Source of the DNA: a virus
Lineage: Duplodnaviria; Heunggongvirae; Uroviricota; Caudoviricetes
Strand: one strand, 5' to 3'
IMG/VR virus record: IMGVR_UViG_2684623127_000005
DNA: 64,000 nt
Both the position numbers and the translations under genes were made by a program. Positions 1 to 21,749 of this stretch are shown here, in pieces (the stretch's first letter is position 1; every line of letters starts with the position of its first letter). A model generated the notes under the pieces. It did not search any database. It had not been told where the DNA came from and worked only from the letters and a program-made list of their open reading frames with translations.

Positions 1-1287
1 TCAGAGTCTGGCTCTATGGGGCATGTATGGGACACTCTCCGTCAACTGCTTATTGAGTAGTTCTATTTGCCCGATATTGTTATCTTTCATCCATGCTCCG
101 TAAACGTTGAATACCATTTGTGCATTTGCATGGCCCATTTGGTTTGCTATGAAGCTTGGATTCGCTCCTGCCGATAATGCCCAGCAGGCATAAGTATGCC
201 TAGACTGATAGGCTTTTCTGTGCCGCAGTCCTGCTCGCCTTAATGCAGATGCCCAGGAATCTCTGATGGAATCTGCTTTATAGTGGTGACCGACTTGCTG
301 GCATTTTTTTACCAGTTGCGGATTAAAAACAAACGTGCATTCATGGCGTGCGGTGCGACCGAACTCCCGAAGCTTGACGTCAATTTGATACTGAGGGCCA
401 AGTCTTGTCATTTCAGCCTGGCTTTTCAGGGCATCAACAGCTGGTTGAACAAGATGAATAACACGATCAGTTCCCGCTTCTGTTTTTGGTAGAGTGAACT
501 CCCCGAGTTTTGTATAATTACGACGGATAGTCATTGTTTTAGCTTTTAAATCAATATCCTCCCAGGCGAGAGATATTAGCTCACCGTGACGAATGCCTGT
601 GTATACTGCTAAGGACCACAGGTTTTTTGTTTGTTGATGGTGACAGGCATCAATAAAACGAATAAATTCGTCACGTGTGAGCGGATCTGGTTCTGTTCTG
701 GATCTCTTTAATGGTGTCAGGCCGTTAAATGGGTTTGACACGATATAGCCGTTATCAGCCGCAAATTGAAACATTCCTGCAATTGTCGTCATGTAGTAAT
801 TAACCGTAACTACTGACCTCCCTTTAATCGGCGTTGTTTTTCCGTTAGAAAGATTATGATACCCGGTCAATAAATCTTTCCTGATAAACAGTAAATCTTC
901 CTTTGTTACCGACGAAGCAAGACGTTTTTCCCCTATGCGAGGAAGCATGTTTCTCACCACGGATTGATACCGACTGAATGCATTACTTCCTATCTCAATT
1001 TTCTTAAGGTCCAACCATTTTTCCGAAAGTGCCTTAACGGTTATCTCTCTTTTTCCCAGACCAAAGTGTTTCAGGTTAGGGGAATTAGGGAACTGCGCGG
1101 CGTAGTCGAAACTCCCCATTCTGATTGCAAAACAAACAGAAGTGCGAAGCTCACCAGCGATCTTCCGGTTTTTGGCGGTGTCAGGAACACCGAGGTTTTC
1201 TCTGACACGTTTGCCATTATAGTGAAACCATATACGGAGTGATCCTCCATGGTTTTCAACGCCTGTCGGGTATGATGCGTTACTCAT
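1..1287 (-). CDS. int: Phage tyrosine integrase (prophage 1); C-terminal 12 codons overlap the att core
   Basis: 428-aa ORF with the C-terminal catalytic region of tyrosine recombinases (R..HxxR..Y pattern, ...RHTYACWALSAG...); sits at the prophage left end next to an excisionase-like gene. Confidence 0.9.
   Translation of the reverse strand: MSNASYPTGVENHGGSLRIWFHYNGKRVRENLGVPDTAKNRKIAGELRTSVCFAIRMGSFDYAAQFPNSPNLKHFGLGKREITVKALSEKWLDLKKIEIGSNAFSRYQSVVRNMLPRIGEKRLASSVTKEDLLFIRKDLLTGYHNLSNGKTTPIKGRSVVTVNYYMTTIAGMFQFAADNGYIVSNPFNGLTPLKRSRTEPDPLTRDEFIRFIDACHHQQTKNLWSLAVYTGIRHGELISLAWEDIDLKAKTMTIRRNYTKLGEFTLPKTEAGTDRVIHLVQPAVDALKSQAEMTRLGPQYQIDVKLREFGRTARHECTFVFNPQLVKKCQQVGHHYKADSIRDSWASALRRAGLRHRKAYQSRHTYACWALSAGANPSFIANQMGHANAQMVFNVYGAWMKDNNIGQIELLNKQLTESVPYMPHRARL
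16..36. repeat. attL core candidate (21-bp exact direct repeat ATGGGGCATGTATGGGACACT, partner at 44949-44969)
   Basis: Exact 21-bp match read directly from the sequence; lies inside the int 3' end; flanking bases differ on both sides. Confidence 0.5.
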
Positions 1288-1320
1288 AAAACCTCCCAGA
1301 CGTCCAGGAGCATTAACAGG

Positions 1321-1575
1321 TTAACCGGAACTTGCATTTTTGGCACCTGGTTGTTTCTGGTTTTCGATCCATCGCATAATTTCTTCGATGTTGTACAGGC
1401 ATTCACTGTAATGCCCCGGATCACCTTCTACAGCGTAATGGCGGTATTCTTTTCCCTGCATCCATGACTTTCTTCTGGCTCGCTCGATGGTGCCAGGCTT
1501 TAGCCCTGTTGATGCAATGAGGACTCTCTCCGTACACCATTTGCTGGGGGTTATCTGATAGATGATTGTCTGCAT
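1321..1575 (-). CDS. xis: Excisionase-like small DNA-binding protein
   Basis: 84-aa ORF immediately upstream of int on the same strand; small basic protein in the usual xis position. Confidence 0.5.
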   Translation of the reverse strand: MQTIIYQITPSKWCTERVLIASTGLKPGTIERARRKSWMQGKEYRHYAVEGDPGHYSECLYNIEEIMRWIENQKQPGAKNASSG

Positions 1576-1766
1576 GCCAACCTCATAAAACTTTCATCCA
1601 CGGCAGTGGCACCACACTTCAAACATTCGCTTCACATCTTCTGTACAACACGGTGTTGTTTATGCAGCGAACAATTTTTACCGGGTAACCGGCACTGTCG
1701 GTATACAGTTGTCCCTGATTAATCAGAGCGAACATTTTTTCTCCTGCTCTCTGAATAGTGAGAACT

Positions 1767-2150
1767 TCAGAGCCGTATGTTTGTAGCGGGTTCAATGCTG
1801 ATAATTTCTGCTGAGATAAGCATCCCGGCAAGCCAGAGTTCCCCGGACAGGTCTTCATCCTGGCATATCAGTTCGCCAATATTAATGGTGGCCATGATAT
1901 CCGTTTTCCCTGTGCGCTCATCCAGGACTTCTTCATAAGGCAGCGTTGCGTACAGGCTTTCAATAGCGCAATTGATAACATCCAGTCCGGTCAGATTGCC
2001 GCCGACAGTAACTTCGAATGTTTCGCGGTATTCCCATAGTCCGAAAGTTAATCGAACGGTTTGTTTTGCCATGCGTCCGCACGACGTCAGATTCGGGTCA
2101 TAGTTCATTATTTGCGGTTGAGTATTCTGGTTGTTCATCTGATTTTCCAT
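1767..2150 (-). CDS. Hypothetical early-left protein (start uncertain; ORF extends to 2213)
   Basis: Open frame in the early-left operon between the SPFH gene and xis; no recognisable motif. Confidence 0.3.
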   Translation of the reverse strand: MENQMNNQNTQPQIMNYDPNLTSCGRMAKQTVRLTFGLWEYRETFEVTVGGNLTGLDVINCAIESLYATLPYEEVLDERTGKTDIMATINIGELICQDEDLSGELWLAGMLISAEIISIEPATNIRL

Positions 2151-2178
2151 TAACCCGGCGGTTTGCCGGGCGTGTAAG

Positions 2179-3006
2179 TTATTTAATCTGGATAAATGGT
2201 GTATTGGCACCACTGGTCATGTATTGCGGCAGTGTACCGTTCCACTTGTTGATGGCTTCCAGCTCCATGACGCCAGGGTTCTGGCGCAGAGCTTCGCCGC
2301 GTAAACGAATGGCATCGGCTTCTGCCAGGGCTTTTGTTCGAATGGCATCAGCCTGTCCGGCAGCTTCTGCACGCAGCATGTTGGCCTCCGCTTCACGTTG
2401 CTTGACTTCCTGTTCGCGCTGCAGGGTTTTCTGGTTTGCCGTGACTTTGGCGTTAATGCTGTCGATAACGGTTGGCGGGTATTCCGGTTTACCTACATAA
2501 GAGAGGCTCATTACCTGAACGCCGATGGGGGTCATCTCTTCCTGAATGTCTTTAAGTGCGGCATCCAGTAGTTCAGACTTGCCGCCGTCGATAAATTTGT
2601 CGGTGGTCATTTTGCTGGCCAGTCGATTGAGTGCGTCGGCGATCTTCTGGCGCAGGTCAGTGGCGGTAATGTCATCCACGCCTTTGCGGTAGGTCTGAAA
2701 CACCGTGGTAACTTTGGATGGATCAACTTTGTAGGCAACACCGATGTGATAGCCGATGGTTGTGCCGTCACTCATCTGGAAGCTGAACGGCTCATCGTAG
2801 GTCTTCATTTGTTTGAAGGTTGGGAAGATGTAAACTTCAGTATTCCAGCCAGTCCAGTAGCGACCAACACCGACCACCTCACCGACGCCTTTATCGTCGC
2901 CCAGTTTATTTACTTTGATGCCAACATTACCGGGTTCAACGCGATCGCAGCCGACAAGGCCAATGGTCGGCAGAACAATGGCTAAAGCAAAAATAATTTT
3001 TTTCAT
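2179..3006 (-). CDS. SPFH/band-7 (stomatin/prohibitin-like) family lipoprotein
   Basis: 275 aa; N-terminal lipoprotein signal (...LPTIGLVGC); central SPFH-type domain followed by a charged Ala/Glu/Arg/Gln-rich coiled-coil tail (REQEVKQREAEANMLRAEAAGQADAIRTKALAEADAIRLRGEA) typical of the HflK/C, QmcA and prohibitin family. Confidence 0.7.
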   Translation of the reverse strand: MKKIIFALAIVLPTIGLVGCDRVEPGNVGIKVNKLGDDKGVGEVVGVGRYWTGWNTEVYIFPTFKQMKTYDEPFSFQMSDGTTIGYHIGVAYKVDPSKVTTVFQTYRKGVDDITATDLRQKIADALNRLASKMTTDKFIDGGKSELLDAALKDIQEEMTPIGVQVMSLSYVGKPEYPPTVIDSINAKVTANQKTLQREQEVKQREAEANMLRAEAAGQADAIRTKALAEADAIRLRGEALRQNPGVMELEAINKWNGTLPQYMTSGANTPFIQIK

Positions 3007-3191
3007 TTTTTATCCTTAGTGAAAGAAAGACCCTTGTAAATGGCATAAATGCAGGGCGGGGTCAGAAACGCCAGTGCAAAGCCAGAAGTAACTGCTATCG
3101 TATCCTTCATGGATATAAGGAACGGAACGAGTAATCCGTAAATGCATGCGATAATTGCCAGTAAAATTACTATTGTGAAATACAGTCTCAT
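3003..3191 (-). CDS. Small two-helix membrane protein, translationally coupled (ATGA overlap) to the SPFH gene
   Basis: 62 aa with two hydrophobic helices (IVILLAIIACIYGLLVPFLI and AVTSGFALAFLTPPCIYAIY); its stop overlaps the SPFH start codon. Confidence 0.5.
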   Translation of the reverse strand: MRLYFTIVILLAIIACIYGLLVPFLISMKDTIAVTSGFALAFLTPPCIYAIYKGLSFTKDKK

Positions 3192-3375
3192 TGGTATGTG
3201 GTATCCCGATATTTTTAACTGACAGACAGCGCAATAAAGAGAATAATGATTTCTGTTATTGTCAGTACTGTGGCAAGGATTAAAAGCAGTTTTACTCTGC
3301 TTAATTCACGGTTGTTTTTCATATAAATGGTTAGTAAAAAACGGAAGAATTATATTCTTCTTAATATTTAATGTG

Positions 3376-3948
3376 TCACTGGCCTTCTGGCATACCATGA
3401 GTATTCAGGTCGTTAATCATTTCATCCAGAAGGAGTTCAAGCCCTTCTCGCCCCATGTCTGAAACAATGAAACCTTTATCTGGGTATGTAATGAGCATTT
3501 TCTGATAAAGAAACAGCGCTCTACCCATTCCTTCTGCCTCGCCGTATTTTTGAATTAAATTCCATTCAATATACTGCTGTAAGGCAAACCGAATGGGGCC
3601 GGGATATATCGTCATAACCCCATGCTTCCCGTTATATATTACGGCGCGATCTGTTGTTCCGTGTTCATTCGGGACATCAATTGTGCCGTTCTTGTCTTCT
3701 TCTTCGTTGATGAATGTCGTCACATACAACCATCGCCACTGGGCAACCTTCATCTCAACCGGAAGTTTTCCCAGTAATCCTGCTTCGTCAGCTTGCGCGA
3801 GACACTGAAGGATACGTAAACCTCGCACATTAGGAGTATCGAATTCTCCAGCATCCAGACGGCGTATGGCGTCGTGATAATCAATAGTCATACTGCCTGT
3901 TTGTATACCATTGGCTGTTGCTTCAGCCTGGAATTCAGCGTATTGCAT
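3376..3948 (-). CDS. Hypothetical protein (190 aa), early-left operon
   Basis: Long ORF on the same strand with compact spacing to neighbours; no motif recognised. Confidence 0.5.
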   Translation of the reverse strand: MQYAEFQAEATANGIQTGSMTIDYHDAIRRLDAGEFDTPNVRGLRILQCLAQADEAGLLGKLPVEMKVAQWRWLYVTTFINEEEDKNGTIDVPNEHGTTDRAVIYNGKHGVMTIYPGPIRFALQQYIEWNLIQKYGEAEGMGRALFLYQKMLITYPDKGFIVSDMGREGLELLLDEMINDLNTHGMPEGQ

Positions 3949-3953
3949 GAAAT

Positions 3954-4136
3954 TTATTCCTCATCTTCATCTGCTGGTGCAATAACGTCATATCCTGCCT
4001 TTTCTGCAATAAACAGGAATATTGAAAGATTTCCTACAAATTCATCGTCATGAACATGACGAATTAATATTACTTTCCCGTTTTTGATGGTCAGCAATAC
4101 TCTGGTTTGTTCGTGTTCTGCTGTTTTCTGATGCAT
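3954..4136 (-). CDS. Hypothetical small protein (60 aa)
   Basis: Short ORF ending 6 nt before the 190-aa gene; acidic C-terminus. Confidence 0.3.
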   Translation of the reverse strand: MHQKTAEHEQTRVLLTIKNGKVILIRHVHDDEFVGNLSIFLFIAEKAGYDVIAPADEDEE

Positions 4137-4334
4137 TATTATCTCCCGTATGCTTTACGCAGAAACAAGCAGGCAATATGCATGTGATTTTTCCCGTGTT
4201 GTGCAATAAGGCAGGCTGTTTTGTGTGATGCCTTATGTTTTATAAAAGTCATAATAAAACCTCCTGTGGATTAAGTGTGTGATAATCCCCGGCGATTAAG
4301 CCGTAATATAGTATCTGGAGATGACTTGTTCTAT

Positions 4335-4535
4335 TTAACTGGATAGTTCTTTTTCAGCTGCTGCTTCAGCATAGCAACGTACAAATTCAAGAACTTCATC
4401 ACCTGTTCTTTTTATTGCGTCGTTGTCTGACATTTGTAATACGATAACTGCGCATAATAAATTATGGATATTGTTTGCAAAGGAATCCGGTGCCAGGCAT
4501 AAGCCTTCATACTTATCATGGATATTGCCAGTCAT
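4335..4535 (-). CDS. Small protein homologous to the N-terminal domain of the adjacent tandem-HTH protein
   Basis: About 66 aa from the internal Met; DSFANNIHNLLCAV...GDEVLEFVRCYAEAAA aligns with DSFALTIANLLSAV...GFDVLEFTHEYALAIA of the upstream gene; start abuts that gene's stop. Confidence 0.4.
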   Translation of the reverse strand: MTGNIHDKYEGLCLAPDSFANNIHNLLCAVIVLQMSDNDAIKRTGDEVLEFVRCYAEAAAEKELSS

Positions 4536-5269
4536 TGTTGCTGCTCCTTTGCTTCTGATTTTCCCGTTAACAACCACATCAGGTCACAATTAAGCGCACT
4601 GGCCAGTGGTACTATATGATCAGCAGGAACTTCACAGATGCCGCATTCCCAGTCGTTTATGGGGTCACTGTAGGTATGAATCATGCGGGCAAGATCAGAT
4701 TCGGTTAATCCCAGCTTTGTACGGGCGCTTTTGATGCGTGCGCCAATACTTTCCGCATGGACTTCAGTCGTATTTACACGAATAGCTGACTCGCTGTTTT
4801 TTTCACTTAGTAGAGAAAGCGGATCGCATCCCAGGACGTTTGCCAGGGGGATAAGCATGCTGATGGTTGGCTCGAACTCTCCACTCTCCCATTGCAGAAT
4901 AATCTCTTCGTCAAGATCGAGTAGTCTGGCTAGTTCGGTAGTCGTCAAGCCGCAGGCTTCACGTTTGGTGCGTATGCAGGCTATCTTGTTGCCTGATCGG
5001 ATAGAATGTTGTTGTTTTGTCGATGCGATCGCTAAAGCATATTCATGAGTAAATTCTAGCACATCAAACCCAACCTCTTTTAATCGCGTATCATCTAGGA
5101 GGTTGAAGGTGCGAACAGCACTGAGCAGGTTTGCGATGGTTAATGCAAAAGAATCGAGATCTAAATCATCACATAAAACCTTGTTGTAAGTATTGAGGCT
5201 ACATGTTTTTGGTGTTGTTTGTAAGGCTTCCATATCATCACCATGCAATTCTAAGTTGAAGTTAATCAA
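4532..5269 (-). CDS. Tandem helix-turn-helix (XRE-type x2) regulator with a novel N-terminal domain
   Basis: 245 aa; two XRE-like HTH segments (GLTTTELARLLDLDEEIILQWESGEFEPTISMLIPLANVLGCDPLSL and LGLTESDLARMIHTYSDPINDWECGICEVPADHIVPLASALNCDLMWLL); first gene left of cI. Confidence 0.6.
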   Translation of the reverse strand: MINFNLELHGDDMEALQTTPKTCSLNTYNKVLCDDLDLDSFALTIANLLSAVRTFNLLDDTRLKEVGFDVLEFTHEYALAIASTKQQHSIRSGNKIACIRTKREACGLTTTELARLLDLDEEIILQWESGEFEPTISMLIPLANVLGCDPLSLLSEKNSESAIRVNTTEVHAESIGARIKSARTKLGLTESDLARMIHTYSDPINDWECGICEVPADHIVPLASALNCDLMWLLTGKSEAKEQQQ

Positions 5270-5381
5270 TATATAATTGATGGTGAGATATTATGTGTCA
5301 GGAAAACGACTGTCAATTAAAAATTGATAAACTTGATTTTTTTTGTGATGGATGACCAATAATTTAATTTAAAATCAATAA

Positions 5382-6071
5382 CTAACCAAATCTGTTGATA
5401 TTGAATGGTACAGATGAGATTACTTTTGACTGGATATAGAGCAGCGCCATTCCCTCTTTTTCGATGCTCCATGGCTGATAGTTGGGATTGTCTGATAAGA
5501 CCATGATCTTGCTTCCAATTTTTTGAAGTCGTTTGACGTAACATTCGCCATCAAAGCAAAATGCATAAATGCCATCGCCGTCAAAGTAAGTTACTGTTTT
5601 ATCTAAAAACAGTAAGTCTCCCGGGGAGATTGTTGGGGCCATGCTGTCCCCTCTGGCGTTACCGATTTCTATGTTCTTGAATGCTCTGTTACCGACCAGG
5701 CGGCGGGCATATTCAGGATCAAGTTCTATTGAGCGTACTACATCAATTAGATCTCCCCGTACATGAGTTCCGTCGCCGCAACTGAATTCAACATCCAGTA
5801 CATTGAACACAACGCTGTCTTCTCTTGTATGGTGTTTTTCAGCTGAAGAGAATGTCGATGAGGCATCTTCACCCAAAAACCAGGATTGTGGATAACCACT
5901 AATTACTGATAGCTGTGCAAGTTTATCGCTTCTGGGAAACGTCTTTCCTGTAGTCCAGTATTGTACTGATTGCGCGCTTACACCCAGCTTACGGGCTAGT
6001 TCAGCCTGACTCCAGCCTTTCGTTTTCAGCATCATTGCTATCCGATTTTCTGTGCTTTTTACATTCTTCAT
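5382..6071 (-). CDS. cI: CI-type prophage repressor (HTH_XRE N-terminus + LexA/S24-like peptidase C-terminus)
   Basis: HTH (WSQAELARKLGVSAQSVQYW) followed by an S24-like domain with GDSM and a downstream Lys (YVKRL); divergent from cro; start taken at the internal ATG at 6071 (AGGAA RBS), ORF reaches 6101. Confidence 0.85.
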   Translation of the reverse strand: MKNVKSTENRIAMMLKTKGWSQAELARKLGVSAQSVQYWTTGKTFPRSDKLAQLSVISGYPQSWFLGEDASSTFSSAEKHHTREDSVVFNVLDVEFSCGDGTHVRGDLIDVVRSIELDPEYARRLVGNRAFKNIEIGNARGDSMAPTISPGDLLFLDKTVTYFDGDGIYAFCFDGECYVKRLQKIGSKIMVLSDNPNYQPWSIEKEGMALLYIQSKVISSVPFNINRFG

Positions 6072-6203
6072 GGTGAGTTCCTGTCGAAGCTTTATACACA
6101 TAAATATTAACTTGATTTTAGTGTATTCGATCCTTTTGAAACTTGCATGTTAATTTATTCTTGATGTATTCTTGATTTGTAAAGTTAATGTTGGAGCTGC
6201 GCT
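6072..6203. promoter_or_regulatory. cI-cro intergenic operator/promoter region (OR) with repeated CTTGAT-containing motifs
   Basis: Tandem TATTCTTGAT at 6156-6165 and 6167-6176; AACTTGATTTT at 6109-6119 recurs left of cI at 5330-5340 (OL candidate). Confidence 0.45.
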
Positions 6204-6461
6204 GTGATAAAACTGAATGATTACGACATGTTGCGTAAATTGATCCCTCAAAACGCCATAGCGAGATACATCGGTGTTACGCCACAAGCGGTGAATCTGT
6301 GGTTTTCTAAAAACTCCGTTCCTTCTCGTTTTGTTTTACGGGTGTGTGAATTGGTTGAATGGAAGGTTACTCCGCATGGGTTAAGACCTGATCTATACCC
6401 TTATCCCGAAGATGGAATTCCTGATTCGTTACGAAAATCAAACGGTATTACCAGAGATTAA
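6204..6461 (+). CDS. cro: Cro-like HTH regulator
   Basis: 85-aa ORF divergent from cI with HTH (QNAIARYIGVTPQAVNLWF); GTG start at 6204 or ATG at 6228. Confidence 0.7.
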   Translation: MIKLNDYDMLRKLIPQNAIARYIGVTPQAVNLWFSKNSVPSRFVLRVCELVEWKVTPHGLRPDLYPYPEDGIPDSLRKSNGITRD

Positions 6462-6506
6462 AGACTGACTGTCACAAGCAGTAATTCACGATGAATACGT
6501 TTTGGC

Positions 6507-7250
6507 GTGAGTTCTGAAATGTCATCCTCAAGGAGCAATCAGATGAACACCGCAATTTTTAACGATAAAGCATCCATGACCAGCGTTGAGATTGCAGAGC
6601 TGGTGGGCAGCCAACACAAAGATGTTAAACGCAGCATTGAAAGACTCATGGGGAAGGGAGTTATCCGAAGTGCGCCAATGGCGAATTTCGAAATAATCAA
6701 CAACTTAGGATTGAAAAGAAATGTAGCTGCTTACGTATTCGAAGGTGAACAAGGCAAACGCGACAGTATCATTGTTGTCGCGCAGATTTGCCCTGAATTC
6801 ACCGCCCGCCTGGTAGACCGCTGGCGTGAACTGGAAGAACAGATCCGTAAGCCAATGAGCGAAATCGAAATGGTTGCCGCGATGGCTCTTGAAGCCGTTC
6901 GCCAACAGAAACGGATCACTCAGGTGGAAGAAAAAGTCATCCACGTTGCTGAAACAGTTGAGCAAATTAAAAAGGGCACTATTCGTGAGGGCTATGCCGG
7001 ATATCGCCAACTGAAAGCAAAAACCGGTTTGTCAGATGATAAATGCTGCAATCTGGTGAACGCCTATCAAATTCCTACAGACACACATGAGTTCATGACG
7101 CCGGACGGATTGTTGTCACGTCGCGCAATTGTTGCTGTGGAACCGTTTATGGCTGCTTTTTATCGGGTTATGGAGGAAGCAGAACCGCGAGGGACTCGCT
7201 GGTATCACCCGAAAATGGGGTTATTTCAGGTTATTGGTTGGCAGCGGTGA
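6507..7250 (+). CDS. rha: Phage regulatory protein, Rha family
   Basis: N-terminus MNTAIFNDKASMTSVEIAELVGSQHKDVKRSIERL is typical of Rha-family regulators; probable start at the internal Met near 6543. Confidence 0.65.
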   Translation: MSSEMSSSRSNQMNTAIFNDKASMTSVEIAELVGSQHKDVKRSIERLMGKGVIRSAPMANFEIINNLGLKRNVAAYVFEGEQGKRDSIIVVAQICPEFTARLVDRWRELEEQIRKPMSEIEMVAAMALEAVRQQKRITQVEEKVIHVAETVEQIKKGTIREGYAGYRQLKAKTGLSDDKCCNLVNAYQIPTDTHEFMTPDGLLSRRAIVAVEPFMAAFYRVMEEAEPRGTRWYHPKMGLFQVIGWQR

Positions 7251-7658: not shown

Positions 7659-8021
7659 ATGGCTACAGTCCCAACTTCCCCATACCTGAAAATTGAAGTT
7701 GTCAACGGCAAGGCCGTTATTTTCTCCCTGCATGTTGCCTGCCACTTTAAGCGCATGCACCAGAACATCGTCGACAAAATCGAGTATCTGAACTGCTCAC
7801 GCGAGTTTTTTACCCGCAATTTCATACCGGGTACTTATCACATCTACGGTGACTCCCTGCGTGGTTATTACATCACCCTTGATGGTCTGATGATGCTTCA
7901 GCTTGGGTTAAGTCTACGCACAATGCGGTACTACGAGAGCTGCATTGAAGCATTCCATGAGGCAGAAATCAGCCTCAGTCACACCGCTTTCCGCCGTAAT
8001 CAATGGGAGGTGCGCCCATGA
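7659..8021 (+). CDS. Hypothetical protein (120 aa)
   Basis: ATG at 7659 preceded by an AAGGAGG RBS; the upstream part of the 7359 ORF is low-complexity and probably non-coding. Confidence 0.4.
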   Translation: MATVPTSPYLKIEVVNGKAVIFSLHVACHFKRMHQNIVDKIEYLNCSREFFTRNFIPGTYHIYGDSLRGYYITLDGLMMLQLGLSLRTMRYYESCIEAFHEAEISLSHTAFRRNQWEVRP

Positions 8022-8251
8022 TTCGCCGCGTCGTTAATTCCCTGTATCACCGATACAACCGTTGCCCCCGTGTGGGGCAGTGGTTCACCACCAGCAACGG
8101 CCACGTTCTGCGGGTTTGCCTGGTCAATACAGAAAGCCAGATGGTTGTCTGCCAGGTTCAGGGACGTACTCATACCCTGAGTTATCCGCTGGTGGCTTTT
8201 CAGTCCGGGAAAATGTTTAAGCGTCTGGGAGGTGGCTATGCGTCCGTCTGA
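8018..8251 (+). CDS. Hypothetical small protein
   Basis: ATG at 8018 with a GGAGGTG RBS; overlaps the previous stop. Confidence 0.3.
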   Translation: MIRRVVNSLYHRYNRCPRVGQWFTTSNGHVLRVCLVNTESQMVVCQVQGRTHTLSYPLVAFQSGKMFKRLGGGYASV

Positions 8252-9146
8252 TCTTCTGCTCGATTTTGGGCATCCGGTTGCTTATTACCCTGGGCTCGTT
8301 AAATACATGGGAAGTCCGCACGCTGTTATTTTCTTTGGTCAGATTTTTTACTGGCAGGATAAAGCACATGCAGCGGAAGGCGTACATAAAACGCGTGAAG
8401 AGATACAACACGAAACTGGACTTACATTTGAACAACAGGCTGTAGCGCGTAAGCATCTTGTGTCCAGAGGCATTTTGGTTGAAACCAACAAGCGTCTTGA
8501 GCACAAAATGTTCTACCGTATAGATTGTGAGCGCCTTAATGAAATTATCAATGAAAACAATCAGTTTTCCCGAAATGGGGAAACCCGTTTTCGGGAAACT
8601 GTAAAACCCAATTTCGCGGAGGAGGGAAAGCCTTCACCGCGGACACGGGAAACCACTCGCCGCGGAGAAGGGAAAACCAATTTCGATCTTACAGAGAATA
8701 CAACAGAGATTACTTCAGAGAATACTACAGAGAGTAAAAACACTATTGGCGCATCCGCTGACGCGTCTGCACCAGCGCGTTCTGCCCGACAGGAATATTC
8801 ACCGGAATTTGAACAGGCCTGGCAGGAATATCCCAAACGTGCTGGTGGTAATTCCAAGTCAGCAGCCTTCAAAGCCTGGAAAGCCCGAATCAGGGAAGGT
8901 GTGACACCAGAAACCATGCTCAACGGTGTGAAACGCTATGCTGCCTGGGTGCGTGTCTCAGGAAATACCGGCACCCAGTTCGTGAAGCAGGCGTCGACGT
9001 TCTTTGGACCCGATCGTCACTTCGAAGATTTCTGGCAACAGCCAGCAGCTCCCGGAGGTGGGCGACAGCGACAGGTCGATGTCCTGGCTGGCCTGGGAGC
9101 CATGTCTGACAAATTCGGTAAATCCAGTGACAAATTGACATTCTGA
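8232..9146 (+). CDS. Replication initiation protein (O-like / replisome organizer)
   Basis: 304 aa immediately upstream of the DnaC-like and DnaB-like genes; N-terminal winged-helix-like region and low-complexity linker as in phage initiators. Confidence 0.55.
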   Translation: MAMRPSDLLLDFGHPVAYYPGLVKYMGSPHAVIFFGQIFYWQDKAHAAEGVHKTREEIQHETGLTFEQQAVARKHLVSRGILVETNKRLEHKMFYRIDCERLNEIINENNQFSRNGETRFRETVKPNFAEEGKPSPRTRETTRRGEGKTNFDLTENTTEITSENTTESKNTIGASADASAPARSARQEYSPEFEQAWQEYPKRAGGNSKSAAFKAWKARIREGVTPETMLNGVKRYAAWVRVSGNTGTQFVKQASTFFGPDRHFEDFWQQPAAPGGGRQRQVDVLAGLGAMSDKFGKSSDKLTF

Positions 9147-19533: not shown

Positions 19534-19749
19534 ATGTACCAGATGGAAAAAATCACAACAGGTGTGTCATACACCACGTCAGCGGTGGGAACGGGCTACT
19601 GGTTCCTGCAGTTGCTGGACAGGGTTTCCCCGTCTCAGTGGGCGGCAATAGGCGTGCTGGGGAGTCTGCTGTTTGGTCTGCTGACGTACCTGACGAACCT
19701 GTATTTCAAAATCAGAGAGGACAGGCGTAAGGCGGCACGGGGAGAGTAA
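19534..19749 (+). CDS. S: Holin, phage 21 S (pinholin) family, dual-start motif
   Basis: ...[50 protein letters not shown] closely matches S21; MYQMEK N-terminus gives two starts. Confidence 0.8.
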
Positions 19750-19753
19750 GCTG

Positions 19754-20287
19754 ATGAGCAGGAAACTCCGCTATGGTTTATCGGCTGCCGTTCTGGCGCT
19801 GATTGCCGCAGGTGCTTCTGCGCCTGAAATCCTCGACCAGTTTCTGGATGAAAAGGAAGGTAACCACACCACGGCATACCGTGATGGTGCGGGTATCTGG
19901 ACCATCTGCCGTGGAGCCACCCGGGTGGATGGTAAGCCTGTGATTCCTGGCATGAAGCTGTCGAAGGAAAAATGCGACCGGGTTAACGCTATCGAACGGG
20001 ATAAGGCGCTGGCATGGGTGGAGCGTAATATAAAAGTTCCACTGACCGAGCCACAAAAAGCAGGTATCGCGTCATTCTGTCCGTACAACATTGGTCCCGG
20101 TAAGTGTTTCCCGTCGACGTTTTACAGACGAATTAATGCAGGTGATCGAAAAGGTGCCTGCGAAGCGATTCGCTGGTGGATTAAGGACGGCGGCAGAGAC
20201 TGCCGTATTCGTTCAAACAACTGTTACGGTCAGATATCCCGTCGTGACCAGGAGAGCGCGCTGGCGTGCTGGGGAATCGACAGATAA
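19754..20287 (+). CDS. R: SAR endolysin (phage lysozyme with N-terminal signal-anchor-release domain)
   Basis: N-terminal weakly hydrophobic SAR segment (LRYGLSAAVLALIAAGASAP) plus lysozyme catalytic region (E...D...T spacing, ...NHTTAYRDGAGIWTICRG...). Confidence 0.85.
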   Translation: MSRKLRYGLSAAVLALIAAGASAPEILDQFLDEKEGNHTTAYRDGAGIWTICRGATRVDGKPVIPGMKLSKEKCDRVNAIERDKALAWVERNIKVPLTEPQKAGIASFCPYNIGPGKCFPSTFYRRINAGDRKGACEAIRWWIKDGGRDCRIRSNNCYGQISRRDQESALACWGIDR

Positions 20288-20558
20288 GAAGAATATTTTG
20301 CTGAAAAATGAGGTTTGCTTACATGGACGGATAACACGAAATCCTGCGAACTGGCAAAATGTAAGTGAATAAAGTCAACAAGATTGTTTCATGAAGAGGC
20401 ACCGTAATGGTGCCTTTGTCATTTCTGCGCTTCGCACAAGCGTAAATAAACCAAAGAACCTTTCAGGATGACCCTTGAGGATACCGGTTTGGCTGTCGGT
20501 GCCTTTCTGTGGGCTGGATTCCTGTGAGACAAGGTTCATCACTAAAAGGAAATAACCG

Positions 20559-21128
20559 ATGAATATGATGGCCGTGCCGTTTCACGGCAACTCTCTTTAT
20601 GTAGTTAACCATAATGGCGAACCATACGTTCCCATGAAACCTGTCGTTGCGGGGATGGGGCTGGCCTGGCAATCACAGTTGGCTAAGTTAAGACAGCGTT
20701 TTGCGTCAACTATAACGGAAATCGTTATGGTTGCTGAGGATGGGAAACAACGCAATATGGTGTCCATGCCACTTCGAAAACTTGCCGGCTGGCTACAAAC
20801 CATTAATCCCAACAAAGTAAAACCCGAAATCCGCGATAAGGTCATCCGGTATCAGGAAGAGTGCGACGATGTTCTTTACGAGTACTGGACGAAGGGTTTT
20901 GTCGTTAATCCCCGTAAAATGAGCGTGATGGAAGAACTCAACCAGGCTTGTGCTGACATGAAACGGGATAAAAACATTGCCAGTGTGTTTGCTACCGGGC
21001 TGAATGAGTGGAAACAGGTTAAAGCCGCGCATGTATCAAAAATCCGTACGCTGGTAAATGAAGCGAATATGCTGATTGATTTTGTCCTGGCTGATACAGG
21101 CAAAGGGAAAATAACAAAGGCGGATTGA
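20559..21128 (+). CDS. Antirepressor-like protein embedded in the lysis cassette
   Basis: 189-aa ORF between R and Rz; a similar gene occupies this position in Stx phages (recalled); family assignment tentative. Confidence 0.4.
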   Translation: MNMMAVPFHGNSLYVVNHNGEPYVPMKPVVAGMGLAWQSQLAKLRQRFASTITEIVMVAEDGKQRNMVSMPLRKLAGWLQTINPNKVKPEIRDKVIRYQEECDDVLYEYWTKGFVVNPRKMSVMEELNQACADMKRDKNIASVFATGLNEWKQVKAAHVSKIRTLVNEANMLIDFVLADTGKGKITKAD

Positions 21129-21281
21129 TGGGGTGGCTAATGATATCAGATAAACTCATAACGCTGGTGAAGAGCCTCTGTGTACTTGTCGGCATTTCAT
21201 TTTTAGTCATGCTGGTTGCCATTTTCTTTTCCACCGCCTGGCGAGTCCTGACGTTATCGGGACTGGTGGGGTGAAAGAGAG

Positions 21282-21749
21282 ATGAACCGTGTTCTGTGTG
21301 TGGTGATTATTGTCCTGGCGGTTGGCTGTGGTGCGCTGTGGCTGGCAACAAACCATTACCGTGACAACGCGCTCACCTACAAAGCGCAGCGTGATAAAAA
21401 AGCCAGAGAGCTGGAACAGGCGAATGCCACCATTACTGACATGCAGGTGCGCCAGCGTGATGTTGCTGCGCTCGATGCAAAATACTCGAGGGAGTTAGCC
21501 GATGCGAGAGCTGAAAATGAAACTCTGCGTGCTGATGTTGCCGCTGGTCGTAAGCGCCTGCGGATCAACGCCATCTGCTCCGGTACCGTGCGTGAAGCCA
21601 CCGGCACCTCCGGCGTGGATAATGCAACCGGCCCCCGACTGGCAGACACCGCTGAACGGGATTATTTCATCCTCAGAGAACGGTTGATGACAATGCAGAA
21701 GCAGCTGGAAGGGGCACAGGACTATATCCGCACTCAGTGCCTGAACTAA
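21282..21749 (+). CDS. Rz: Rz i-spanin
   Basis: N-terminal TM helix ([18 protein letters not shown]), coiled-coil periplasmic domain, position after the endolysin. Confidence 0.75.
21517..21687 (+). CDS. Rz1: Rz1 o-spanin (lipoprotein embedded in the +1 frame of Rz)
   Basis: [15 protein letters not shown] lipobox followed by a Pro-rich periplasmic segment, entirely inside Rz. Confidence 0.65.

What the first reader, a model, noticed from the sequence alone, without database searches (positions are those of the whole stretch)
1619..5269. Early-left accessory block: SPFH lipoprotein coupled to a small membrane protein, where recombination genes normally sit
The early-left arm of prophage 1 has no recognisable N, gam, bet, exo, kil or cIII. 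It carries instead an SPFH/band-7 lipoprotein (2179-3006) whose start overlaps the stop of a 62-aa two-helix membrane protein (3003-3191), preceded by a 190-aa unknown and an AT-rich gap (3192-3375). Membrane-scaffold proteins in this position are the classic place for superinfection-exclusion or abortive-infection functions. I do not recognise this arrangement from characterised Stx phages.
Basis: partly seen in the sequence, partly recalled or inferred. Interest (0 to 1): 0.7.

Follow-up and report, generated by a model that had tools for sequence, protein, structure and literature searches.

The report
Phage SPFH lipoprotein with small membrane partner
The block is real, but it is a known, widely shared phage gene pair (the same pair as genes 19 and 20 of coliphage N4): a tiny two-helix membrane protein coupled to a lipid-anchored scaffold protein, found in both virulent and temperate phages, with a function nobody has tested.

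Summary
On the minus strand, a 275-aa SPFH/Band-7 lipoprotein (2179-3006) starts inside the stop codon (ATGA) of a 62-aa two-helix membrane protein (3003-3191). Upstream lie an AT-rich gap and a 190-aa unknown. No N, gam, bet, exo, kil or cIII homologue is detected.

The novelty claim fails. The block is 100% identical to E. coli prophages at yecE and 98-99.9% identical to about 11 deposited Stx2 phages. It is present in the characterised Stx2e phage phiP27.

The pair is homologous to coliphage N4 gp19-gp20. A small membrane ORF lies on the same strand within about 420 nt upstream of the SPFH gene in all 15 diverse phages I examined. In the temperate phages where the flanks are clear, the pair sits inside early lytic operons. 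PADLOC finds no defence hit.

The SPFH model matches cage-forming HflK/C, prohibitin, erlin and stomatin over its full length. Both genes are under purifying selection.

My best reading is a periplasm-facing SPFH cage with a two-helix partner, made early in lytic growth to act on the host envelope. Exclusion of other phages is the likeliest role, but it is untested. A lysogen-expressed abortive-infection system is less likely. The 190-aa protein has a confident model and no structural neighbour. Interest is moderate.

The parts
3003..3191 (-). 62-aa two-pass inner-membrane protein, an N4 gp19-type partner. It has a conserved loop motif P-x-[LM]-[IV]-S and a basic C-terminal tail.
   Evidence: phrog_1130 at 7e-23. 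Two hydrophobic segments. Aligns with N4 gp19, Moo19 gp30, P88 gp11, KpS8 gp225 and others, with Pro23 invariant. Intact in 79 of 79 relatives. dN/dS 0.17-0.45.
2179..3006 (-). 275-aa SPFH/Band-7 lipoprotein, N4 gp20-type. Lipobox LVGC with Cys20, and Asp at +2. SPFH domain, a 65-residue helix, and a conserved C-terminal KWNG..P...PF motif.
   Evidence: Band_7 at 1.2e-30 and phrog_200 at 1.2e-112. AlphaFold2 model with pLDDT 80. Foldseek top hits are HflC, prohibitin, HflK, erlin and stomatin at E 1e-13 to 1e-11. C-D-R-V is conserved in about 95 of 120 close homologues. dN/dS 0.02-0.04.
3003..3006 (-). ATGA stop/start overlap, which implies translational coupling of the pair.
   Evidence: Sequence read directly. 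The same 4-nt overlap is present in 79 of 79 relatives. Start-overlaps of 1-20 nt occur in N4, Moo19, P88, Fraca, CKB-S1, Piffle, E253, Magneto, the P1 variant, the Klebsiella prophage and Staphylococcus phage 812.
3192..3375 (-). AT-rich intergenic gap and mosaic junction. It contains a weak hairpin (3360-3344) followed by T6 (3341-3336).
   Evidence: GC fraction 0.34. Hairpin in the predicted fold. 96% conserved with phiP27. Stx1 phages share sequence only to the right of about 3390. The gap is absent in Fraca, P88 and the Klebsiella prophage. No Rfam hit. No sigma-70-like site on the coding strand at the scan threshold.
3376..3948 (-). 190-aa protein of unknown function (phrog_1515), a recurrent neighbour of the pair.
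1767..2138 (-). DUF5406 protein downstream of SPFH, function unknown. It is not part of the conserved pair.
   Evidence: DUF5406 at 4e-22 and phrog_3409 at 2e-52. PGAP start coordinate. Absent next to the pair in N4, P88, Fraca and the Klebsiella prophage.
1619..1858 (-). DUF4222 gene fragment (pseudogene).
   Evidence: DUF4222 matches only residues 45-74. PGAP annotates it as incomplete.
3954..4136 (-). 60-aa protein (phrog_340), similar to C-terminal parts of anti-repressors.
4335..4535 (-). 66-aa protein (phrog_4587), function unknown.
4532..5269 (-). Double helix-turn-helix regulator (DicA-like, phrog_4836), the first gene of the leftward operon.
   Evidence: HTH_3 matched twice. phrog_4836 at 3e-92. 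NCBIfam DicA subfamily at 7e-17, below its cut-off.
5266..5327 (-). Leftward promoter-like site (TTGACA, 17-nt spacer, TAATAT) bracketed by two perfect 15-bp palindromes TCAATN5ATTGA.

Best explanation
The core of the finding is a portable two-gene phage membrane module, homologous to coliphage N4 gp19-gp20.

Shown:
- A 62-aa protein with two hydrophobic helices is translationally coupled to a 275-aa SPFH protein that carries a lipoprotein signal peptide.
- A small membrane ORF lies upstream of the SPFH gene, on the same strand, in phages of very different families and lifestyles.
- Both genes are under purifying selection.
- The SPFH model has the full architecture of cage-forming SPFH proteins.

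Inferred:
- The small protein sits in the inner membrane with both ends in the cytoplasm and a short conserved periplasmic loop.
- The SPFH protein is exported and lipidated on Cys20. In the enterobacterial temperate-phage lineage it is kept at the inner membrane by Asp at +2.
- It oligomerises through its 65-residue helix and conserved C-terminus into an HflK/C-like ring or cage on the periplasmic face of the inner membrane, over a patch that holds the small partner.
- The module is made together with early genes, from the leftward promoter at about 5290-5316, on induction or infection. It remodels or guards the envelope of the infected cell for the phage's own benefit.

The role I consider most likely is an early-acting block on entry of further phage DNA, or on damage from outside. 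This is analogous in logic to T4 Imm (a small two-helix inner-membrane protein) plus Sp (a membrane-anchored periplasmic protein). I consider a lysogen-expressed abortive-infection system less likely.
For: Anatomy.

Homology to N4 gp19/gp20: the Moo19 annotation and the N4 record, and the alignments.

Synteny: a small membrane ORF lies on the same strand within about 420 nt upstream of SPFH in 15 of 15 phages inspected. These are the window, phiP27, N4, Moo19, P88, Fraca, the Klebsiella prophage, KpS8, CKB-S1, Piffle, E253, Magneto, Staphylococcus phage 812, Pa222, the P1 variant and Tian. Ten of these partners are recognisably homologous.

Selection.

Fold: AlphaFold2 model with pLDDT 80. Full-length Foldseek matches to HflC, HflK, prohibitin, erlin, stomatin, flotillin and QmcA.

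Topology: lipobox Cys is invariant in the alignment of seven diverse phage homologues. C-D-R-V is conserved in about 95 of 120 close homologues.

Lytic-programme placement: SPFH homologues occur in 717 phage records, dominated by virulent phages. The pair is embedded without a gap in the P88 early operon downstream of cox, and in the Fraca and Klebsiella early-left operons. In N4 it lies next to the RNAP II genes.

Neighbourhood hint: in N4 and Moo19 the gene directly upstream is a P22 gp17-type 'superinfection exclusion' family protein (Pfam GP17 at 2.9e-46). A gene annotated the same way lies next to the SPFH gene in the Vi01-like phage PhiSH19 (PMC3220722).

The prophage has its own holin, endolysin and Rz/Rz1, so the pair is not its lysis cassette.
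Against: - There is no functional datum of any kind. The papers I found call the role of phage SPFH proteins unclear (PMC13239085) or offer only speculation.
- Cage formation, membrane location and contact between the two proteins are inferred, not computed. No multimer prediction was possible.
- The +2 residue is Y, E, S or N in other phages. By the E. coli +2 rule some of these would be sent to the outer membrane, which would not fit a complex with an inner-membrane partner.
- In this lineage an AT-rich gap with a weak terminator-like hairpin precedes the pair. Independent or lysogenic expression therefore cannot be excluded.
- No terminator is evident between cI and the left operon, so read-through from the cI promoter in lysogens is possible.
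- No sequence similarity to Imm, Sp, SieA or any known exclusion protein was found.
Confidence: 0.4

Rival explanations
1. HflK/C mimic. The periplasmic SPFH cage captures or shields the host membrane protease FtsH, or another inner-membrane quality-control factor. This would change the stability of phage or host membrane proteins. It would do from the early-left operon what lambda cIII does by another route.
For: The only sequence-level hits to solved structures and to NCBIfam are HflK and HflC (E 1e-3 to 3.5e-5). The top Foldseek hits include HflC and HflK in the FtsH complex. The SPFH domain faces outside the cytoplasm, as in HflK/C (inferred from the lipobox). FtsH is present in nearly all bacteria, which fits the wide host range of phages that carry the family. 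One paper on a Burkholderia phage raises this idea (PMC10269572).
Against: Scores are far below the HflK/HflC equivalog cut-offs (22.8 against 134 bits). There is only one SPFH gene, not a K/C pair. The anchor is a lipid, not a transmembrane helix. Structural similarity to prohibitin, erlin and stomatin is equally strong, so the resemblance is to the superfamily, not specifically to HflK/C. A conserved dedicated partner suggests the client is the phage's own small protein.
Confidence: 0.2
2. The pair is a lysogen-expressed moron that protects the host by superinfection exclusion or abortive infection against other phages.
For: Membrane and lipoprotein products of prophages are common exclusion factors (established knowledge: T5 Llp, phi80 Cor, P22 SieA). 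In this lineage the pair is set off by an AT-rich gap carrying a terminator-like hairpin. The pair is a swappable cassette, absent from Stx1 phages with the same backbone. SPFH is under very strong purifying selection within prophages. About 10% of complete E. coli genomes carry a homologue.
Against: No PADLOC hit. No sigma-70-like promoter on the coding strand in the gap at the scan threshold. The same pair lies inside lytic early operons, with no gap, in P88, Fraca and the Klebsiella prophage. SPFH homologues occur mostly in strictly virulent phages, which have no lysogen to protect.
Confidence: 0.12
3. Lysis-timing device. The small two-helix protein with a basic tail is holin-like, and the SPFH cage confines it (or the true holin) to delay or sharpen membrane permeabilisation.
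For: The partner has the size, two-helix layout and charged C-terminus typical of class II holins (established knowledge of holin classes). In Kayvirus the equivalent pair MbpV/MbpS lies directly after holin and endolysin, and the authors note that MbpV resembles holins (PMC7150955).
Against: Outside Kayvirus the pair is not near lysis genes. In this window it is 16 kb from the holin, endolysin and Rz/Rz1. In N4, P88, Fraca and KpS8 it lies among early genes. No holin family hit in Pfam or PHROGs.
Confidence: 0.13

Closest known systems
Coliphage N4 gp19 (membrane protein) and gp20 (lipoprotein); PHROG 1130 and PHROG 200
   Same: Homologous proteins. The SPFH protein of the N4-like phage Moo19, annotated as similar to N4 gp20, is 64% identical to the window protein; N4 gp20 itself was not compared directly. 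The partner keeps two helices and the P-x-[LM]-[IV]-S loop. Gene order is the same and the genes overlap.
   Different: N4 is strictly virulent. Its pair lies in the early/middle region after a P22 gp17-type gene. Its +2 residue is Tyr rather than Asp. Neither pair has a tested function.
E. coli HflK/HflC cage around FtsH (PDB 7vhq, 7wi3, 9cz2)
   Same: SPFH fold followed by a long helix. The bulk of the protein lies outside the cytoplasm. These are the best sequence and structure matches.
   Different: HflK/C is a heteromer of two paralogues, each anchored by a transmembrane helix and 334-419 aa long. Here there is one 275-aa lipid-anchored protein plus a 62-aa partner, and the scores are far below the family cut-offs.
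SPFH-NfeD operons (QmcA-YbbJ, PDB 8z5g; YqiJ-YqiK)
   Same: An SPFH gene is coupled in an operon to a small multi-helix membrane protein gene. The fold matches QmcA.
   Different: NfeD partners carry a C-terminal OB-fold domain, and QmcA faces the cytoplasm (established knowledge). The phage partner is 62 aa with no soluble domain and no Pfam hit. All its detectable relatives are stand-alone proteins of 36-90 aa. The phage SPFH domain is periplasmic.
Phage T4 Imm plus Sp (superinfection immunity)
   Same: Analogy only. An early-expressed small two-helix inner-membrane protein acts together with a membrane-anchored periplasmic protein on the infected cell's envelope (established knowledge).
   Different: No sequence or fold relationship was detected. 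The T4 proteins are encoded apart and have no SPFH domain.
Kayvirus MbpV/MbpS (Staphylococcus phages K and 812)
   Same: An SPFH membrane protein (22-25% identical by tblastn) preceded by a small membrane protein whose gene overlaps its start.
   Different: The host is Gram-positive. MbpS has a transmembrane helix anchor. MbpV has one helix and is 102 aa. The pair lies within the lysis-gene region. Function is untested (PMC7150955).

Membership tests
SPFH / Band-7 superfamily | Band_7 domain above Pfam's gathering score | tested here: met
   107.3 bits against 23.6, covering profile positions 2-176 of 176.
SPFH / Band-7 superfamily | Alpha/beta SPFH fold followed by a long coiled-coil helix, as in cage-forming members | tested here: met
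   AlphaFold2 model with strands at 17-94, helices at 96-158 and one helix at 178-242. Foldseek E 3e-13 to 1e-7 over 240-310 columns to HflC/K, prohibitin, erlin, stomatin, flotillin and QmcA.
SPFH / Band-7 superfamily | N-terminal membrane anchor | tested here: met
   Signal peptide with lipobox LVGC. The Cys is invariant in the alignment of seven diverse phage homologues. This is a sequence pattern only; lipidation itself was not tested.
SPFH / Band-7 superfamily | Assembly into a large ring or cage oligomer | not testable with these tools
   Only monomer prediction was available.
HflK/HflC FtsH modulators | Score above the NCBIfam equivalog cut-off | tested here: not met
   HflC 22.8 bits against 134.4; HflK 19.6 against 159.4.
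HflK/HflC FtsH modulators | Two paralogous SPFH subunits encoded together | tested here: not met
   Only one Band_7 protein among the ORFs of 1300-6100.
HflK/HflC FtsH modulators | Binding of FtsH | not testable with these tools
   Needs co-purification.
SPFH-NfeD operon | Partner carries an NfeD OB-fold domain | tested here: not met
   No Pfam, NCBIfam or PADLOC hit for the 62-aa protein. Its relatives are 36-90 aa.
SPFH-NfeD operon | Adjacent co-directional membrane-protein gene | tested here: met
   ATGA overlap. A partner on the same strand within about 420 nt upstream in 15 of 15 phages inspected.
N4 gp19-gp20-type phage module (PHROG 1130 + PHROG 200) | Full-length match of both proteins to the two PHROG families | tested here: met
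   phrog_200 at 1.2e-112 over residues 1-274; phrog_1130 at 7.3e-23 over residues 1-61.
N4 gp19-gp20-type phage module (PHROG 1130 + PHROG 200) | Small gene upstream, same strand, overlapping or abutting the SPFH start | tested here: met
Known anti-phage defence systems (PADLOC-DB v2) | HMM hit to a component of a described or candidate system | tested here: not met
   No hits for the SPFH protein, its partner, the 190-aa protein, DUF5406, or the 60-aa and 80-aa ORFs. Only generic HTH hits for the two regulators. DefenseFinder was not available.
Known superinfection-exclusion proteins (T4 Imm/Sp, P22 SieA/SieB, Cor, Llp) | Sequence homology | tested here: not met
   No such family among the Pfam or PHROG hits.
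Known superinfection-exclusion proteins (T4 Imm/Sp, P22 SieA/SieB, Cor, Llp) | Exclusion phenotype | not testable with these tools
   Needs plating and DNA-entry assays.
Lambda early-left functions (N, Gam, Bet, Exo, Kil, cIII) | Homologue present between int/xis and cI | tested here: not met
   None in Pfam, PHROGs or NCBIfam for any ORF in 1300-5400.

The most novel reading that the evidence does not exclude
The N4 gp19/gp20-type pair could be a distinct, widespread class of phage envelope device. In this reading, a periplasmic lipid-anchored SPFH cage is built over a dedicated two-helix partner. The infecting or induced phage uses it to fence off a patch of inner membrane, either to exclude competitors or to take control of host membrane quality control. 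It would be the first SPFH scaffold with a defined viral function. It would be present in model and therapeutic phages (N4, Kayvirus, Vequintavirinae, P1-like plasmids) and in about 10% of complete E. coli genomes.
Probability: 0.25. Interest if true: 0.75.

Novelty: new variant of a known kind. Interest (0 to 1): 0.45.

Why it matters
SPFH scaffolds are a current topic in structural membrane biology (HflK/C, prohibitin, erlin, stomatin and flotillin cages). I found no study that gives a viral SPFH protein a function.

This pair occurs in hundreds of sequenced phages, including the classical model N4 and Staphylococcus phages used for therapy. It also occurs in Stx-converting prophages of major STEC lineages. 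A conserved, dedicated two-helix partner gives a compact, clonable two-gene unit. Knock-outs in N4, or expression of the pair in K-12, could test what it does.

For this particular window, the finding carries no new sequence information: the block is already deposited and annotated many times.

Tried and rejected
- PADLOC on all ten ORFs: no defence hit apart from generic HTH matches.
- Sequence search of solved structures for the 190-aa and DUF5406 proteins: nothing.
- Rfam on positions 1-7000, to see whether the AT-rich gap encodes an RNA: nothing at E <= 0.1.
- Promoter and terminator scan: no enrichment over shuffles, and no coding-strand promoter in the gap. By eye, a TATAAT lies in the hairpin loop (3354-3349) with GTGACA 19 nt upstream. 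The spacing is too long to rely on.
- The search for related loci with a diverse SPFH alignment returned only 96-100% identical loci. These were useful for selection analysis but not for diversity, so I fetched diverse phages one at a time instead.
- Seven literature searches found no functional study of phage SPFH proteins.
- My first scripted check of upstream ORFs picked a longer out-of-frame ORF (window 3016-3234). I corrected this, and that ORF is treated as spurious.
- I first scored the P1 variant and Erwinia phage Tian as lacking a partner. ORF listing then found an unannotated 78-aa two-helix ORF in the P1 variant, and a two-helix ORF two genes upstream in Tian.
- Spanin identity was rejected, because Rz/Rz1 are present elsewhere in the prophage.
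- The 'serine protease' label in phiP27 and the LC5678xx records was rejected, because only Band_7 is detected.

Full report
**What is in the sequence**

The first 6.5 kb of the window is the left end of a prophage. All genes from 1 to 6101 are on the minus strand:
- integrase, 1-1287
- excisionase, 1321-1575
- a DUF4222 fragment, 1619-1858, annotated as a pseudogene by PGAP
- a DUF5406 protein, 1767-2138
- an SPFH/Band-7 protein, 2179-3006
- a 62-aa hydrophobic protein, 3003-3191
- an AT-rich gap, 3192-3375, GC fraction 0.34
- a 190-aa unknown, 3376-3948
- a 60-aa ORF and a 66-aa ORF
- a double helix-turn-helix regulator, 4532-5269
- a cI-type S24 repressor, 5382-6101

The cro-like gene (6204-6461) follows on the plus strand.

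The SPFH protein starts MKKIIFALAIVLPTIGLVGC|DRV, which is a lipoprotein signal with Cys20. Its ATG overlaps the TGA of the small ORF as ATGA, and an AAGGA lies 9 nt upstream. No ORF in the arm hits N, Gam, Bet, Exo, Kil or cIII families.

**Where it comes from**

The 4.1-kb block is 100% identical to E. coli 28RC1 and other STEC chromosomes, where the prophage lies next to yecE. It is 98-99.9% identical to 11 deposited Stx2a/Stx2d phage genomes. It is 87% identical over two thirds of its length to phiP27, the Stx2e phage sequenced in 2002, where the genes are L03 to L07.

The window also carries an Stx A subunit-sized RIP-domain gene and a standard holin, endolysin and Rz/Rz1 cassette. The claim that this arrangement is not found in characterised Stx phages is therefore wrong.

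The 'serine protease' label on the SPFH gene in those records appears to be a legacy mis-annotation. Pfam detects only Band_7.

**The arm is mosaic**

Stx1 phages share the backbone from cI down to the 190-aa gene. They then carry about nine other small genes in place of the SPFH cassette. The junction lies at about position 3390, which is the AT-rich gap. The gap is 96% conserved in phiP27. It contains a weak hairpin (3360-3344) followed by T6. It has no Rfam hit and no coding-strand promoter at the scan threshold.

**The pair is an old, widespread phage module**

tblastn finds SPFH homologues in 717 phage records. Most are virulent phages: N4-like Schitoviridae, Vequintavirinae, Bruynoghevirus, Ounavirinae, phiCbK-like phages, jumbo phages and Staphylococcus Kayvirus.

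The annotation of Shigella phage Moo19 identifies the two genes as counterparts of N4 gp19 and gp20. The N4 record shows gp19 (68 aa, membrane protein) overlapping gp20 (278 aa, lipoprotein) by 8 nt.

I inspected 15 phages from different families. Every one has a small membrane ORF on the same strand upstream of the SPFH gene.
- In 11 of them the two genes overlap at the SPFH start, by 1-20 nt.
- In Pa222 the partner ends 10 nt before the SPFH start.
- In KpS8 one short soluble ORF intervenes, and in Tian two do.

Ten of the partners align as one family. Pro23 is invariant, Ser27 and Gly37 are nearly invariant, and all have a basic C-terminal tail. A search of 1.84 billion representative proteins finds only 32 related clusters. 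All the credible ones are stand-alone proteins of 36-90 aa, so the partner is never fused to an NfeD OB-fold domain.

Among 79 close relatives from IMG/VR, the 62-aa ORF is always intact with the same overlap. Against the window sequence, dN/dS is 0.17-0.45 for the partner. It is 0.02-0.04 for the SPFH gene, at dS up to 0.59. Both are working genes.

By megablast, 536 of 5,426 complete E. coli genomes carry a homologue, and 218 carry the whole pair. About 199 copies are on P1-like phage-plasmids of about 95 kb. In the one P1 variant I inspected, the partner is a more divergent, unannotated 78-aa ORF.

**What the proteins look like**

With a 32-sequence alignment, the AlphaFold2 model of the SPFH protein has a mean pLDDT of 80. 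It shows an alpha/beta SPFH domain, one 65-residue helix (178-242) and a low-confidence C-terminus. That C-terminus carries the most conserved motif in the family, NP.V..LEAINKWNG.LP...G...PF.

Foldseek against the PDB gives full-length matches, at E 3e-13 to 1e-7, to HflC, HflK, prohibitin, erlin, stomatin, flotillin and QmcA. All of these form rings or cages on membranes.

By sequence, only HflK and HflC are detectable, and only weakly. Their scores are far below the curated cut-offs. The protein is therefore a member of the SPFH superfamily but not of the HflK/C family.

The lipobox places the whole SPFH domain outside the cytoplasm. Asp at +2 (C-D-R-V) is conserved in about 95 of 120 close homologues. 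Under the E. coli +2 rule, which I cite from established knowledge and did not test, this predicts retention at the inner membrane. Other phages have Y, E, S or N at +2, so the location across the family is uncertain.

By the positive-inside rule, the partner should have both ends in the cytoplasm and a short periplasmic loop that carries the conserved motif. This is inference.

**When it is likely expressed**

In the P2-like phage P88, the pair lies in the early operon downstream of cox and upstream of the replication gene. In the HK97-like phage Fraca and in a Klebsiella prophage, it lies in the early-left operon, with 4-nt overlaps to its neighbours and no gap. In N4 it follows the RNAP II genes.

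In this window, a promoter-like site (TTGACA, 17-nt spacer, TAATAT at 5316-5288) lies just downstream of cI and points into the arm. Two perfect 15-bp palindromes, TCAATN5ATTGA, bracket it. They do not recur in the cI-cro intergenic region.

Taken together, this favours expression with early lytic genes. It is not proven. The gap before the pair, and the lack of a clear terminator after cI, leave room for expression in lysogens.

**What it most likely does**

The shown facts are a coupled two-helix membrane protein and an extracytoplasmic lipid-anchored SPFH scaffold. They are conserved as a unit in virulent and temperate phages and sit among early genes.

From the behaviour of every structurally characterised SPFH protein, I infer a ring or cage on the periplasmic face of the inner membrane, over a patch that contains the partner.

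The role I rank first is protection or closure of the infected cell's envelope early in lytic growth (confidence 0.4). This would mean exclusion of further phage DNA, or of damage from outside, by analogy with T4 Imm plus Sp. Weak support comes from the adjacent P22 gp17-type 'superinfection exclusion' family gene in N4 and Moo19 and from a similarly annotated neighbour in PhiSH19 (PMC3220722).

The rivals are:
- capture of FtsH or similar host factors, as an HflK/C mimic (0.2)
- a lysis-timing device with a holin-like partner, suggested by the Kayvirus context (0.13)

**The other genes**

The 190-aa protein belongs to a narrow, mostly Escherichia family of hypothetical proteins. Its AlphaFold2 model is confident (pLDDT 87, pTM 0.84). 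It has no structural neighbour in PDB or BFVD. A 45%-identical homologue lies directly downstream of the SPFH gene, with a 4-nt overlap, in Klebsiella prophages. It is therefore a recurrent neighbour in two different gene orders. It also occurs without the SPFH pair in Stx1 phages. DUF5406 and the small ORFs remain unknown.

**Literature**

Seven full-text searches found no functional study of a phage SPFH protein.
- A 2026 paper on an N4-like phage states that the reason for its presence is unclear (PMC13239085).
- A Kayvirus paper speculates about help with Sec export (PMC7150955).
- A Burkholderia phage paper speculates about HflC-like control of lysogeny (PMC10269572).

**Verdict**

The block itself is already sequenced and annotated many times, and it is present in a characterised Stx phage. 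The defence interpretation is not supported by the tests available.

What stands out is the systematic pairing of a lipid-anchored periplasmic SPFH scaffold with a dedicated two-helix partner, across phage families and lifestyles, with no known function. I rate it as a new variant of a known kind (an SPFH scaffold plus a small membrane partner), of moderate interest.

Noticed in passing
window 5266-5327: Two perfect 15-bp palindromes TCAATN5ATTGA (5266-5280 and 5313-5327) bracket the leftward promoter-like site. They do not occur in the cI-cro intergenic region. The left operon may therefore answer to a repressor other than cI, perhaps the DicA-like double helix-turn-helix protein encoded just downstream.
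   Followed up: partly
[not shown]
   Followed up: partly
L091 3776-4012 (P1 variant MH422554) and about 199 E. coli plasmids of about 95 kb: P1-like phage-plasmids carry the SPFH gene. In the one P1 variant inspected there is also an unannotated 78-aa two-helix ORF that overlaps the SPFH start by 20 nt. The plasmid records were matched only over the SPFH body.
   Followed up: partly
phiP27 NC_003356 3307-3492 (L002): The 62-aa partner gene is not annotated in the phiP27 reference record, although tblastn finds it at 97% identity. The SPFH gene is labelled 'serine protease' in the GenBank phiP27 record and in the LC5678xx Stx phage records. This is a legacy mis-annotation.
   Followed up: yes
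homologue clusters (for example the sequences starting MKKRLSVIALAAICTMGIIGYDRV): Several SPFH homologue clusters have Tyr, Trp or Phe where the lipobox Cys should be. They would not be lipidated. They may be decayed copies or a variant anchored by an uncleaved signal peptide.
   Followed up: no
window 3016-3234, minus strand: A 72-aa ORF overlaps the partner gene out of frame. It is hydrophilic with no family hit, is probably spurious, and misled a first automated check.
   Followed up: yes
window 1619-1858: The ORF at the left edge of the finding is a DUF4222 remnant. Only residues 45-74 match, and PGAP annotates it as a pseudogene. It overlaps the 5'-extended reading frame of the DUF5406 gene.
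   Followed up: yes
L089/L098 (N4 7668-9092) and L004 1885-3331 (Moo19): In N4-like phages the pair directly follows a P22 gp17-type 'superinfection exclusion' family gene (Pfam GP17 at 2.9e-46). A Vi01-like phage paper lists an SPFH gene next to a gene annotated the same way.
   Followed up: partly
window 15132-16091 and 19534-21749: The prophage carries an Stx A subunit-sized RIP-domain gene and a complete lysis cassette: a 71-aa holin-like ORF, a lysozyme, and Rz with an embedded Rz1 lipoprotein.
   Followed up: partly
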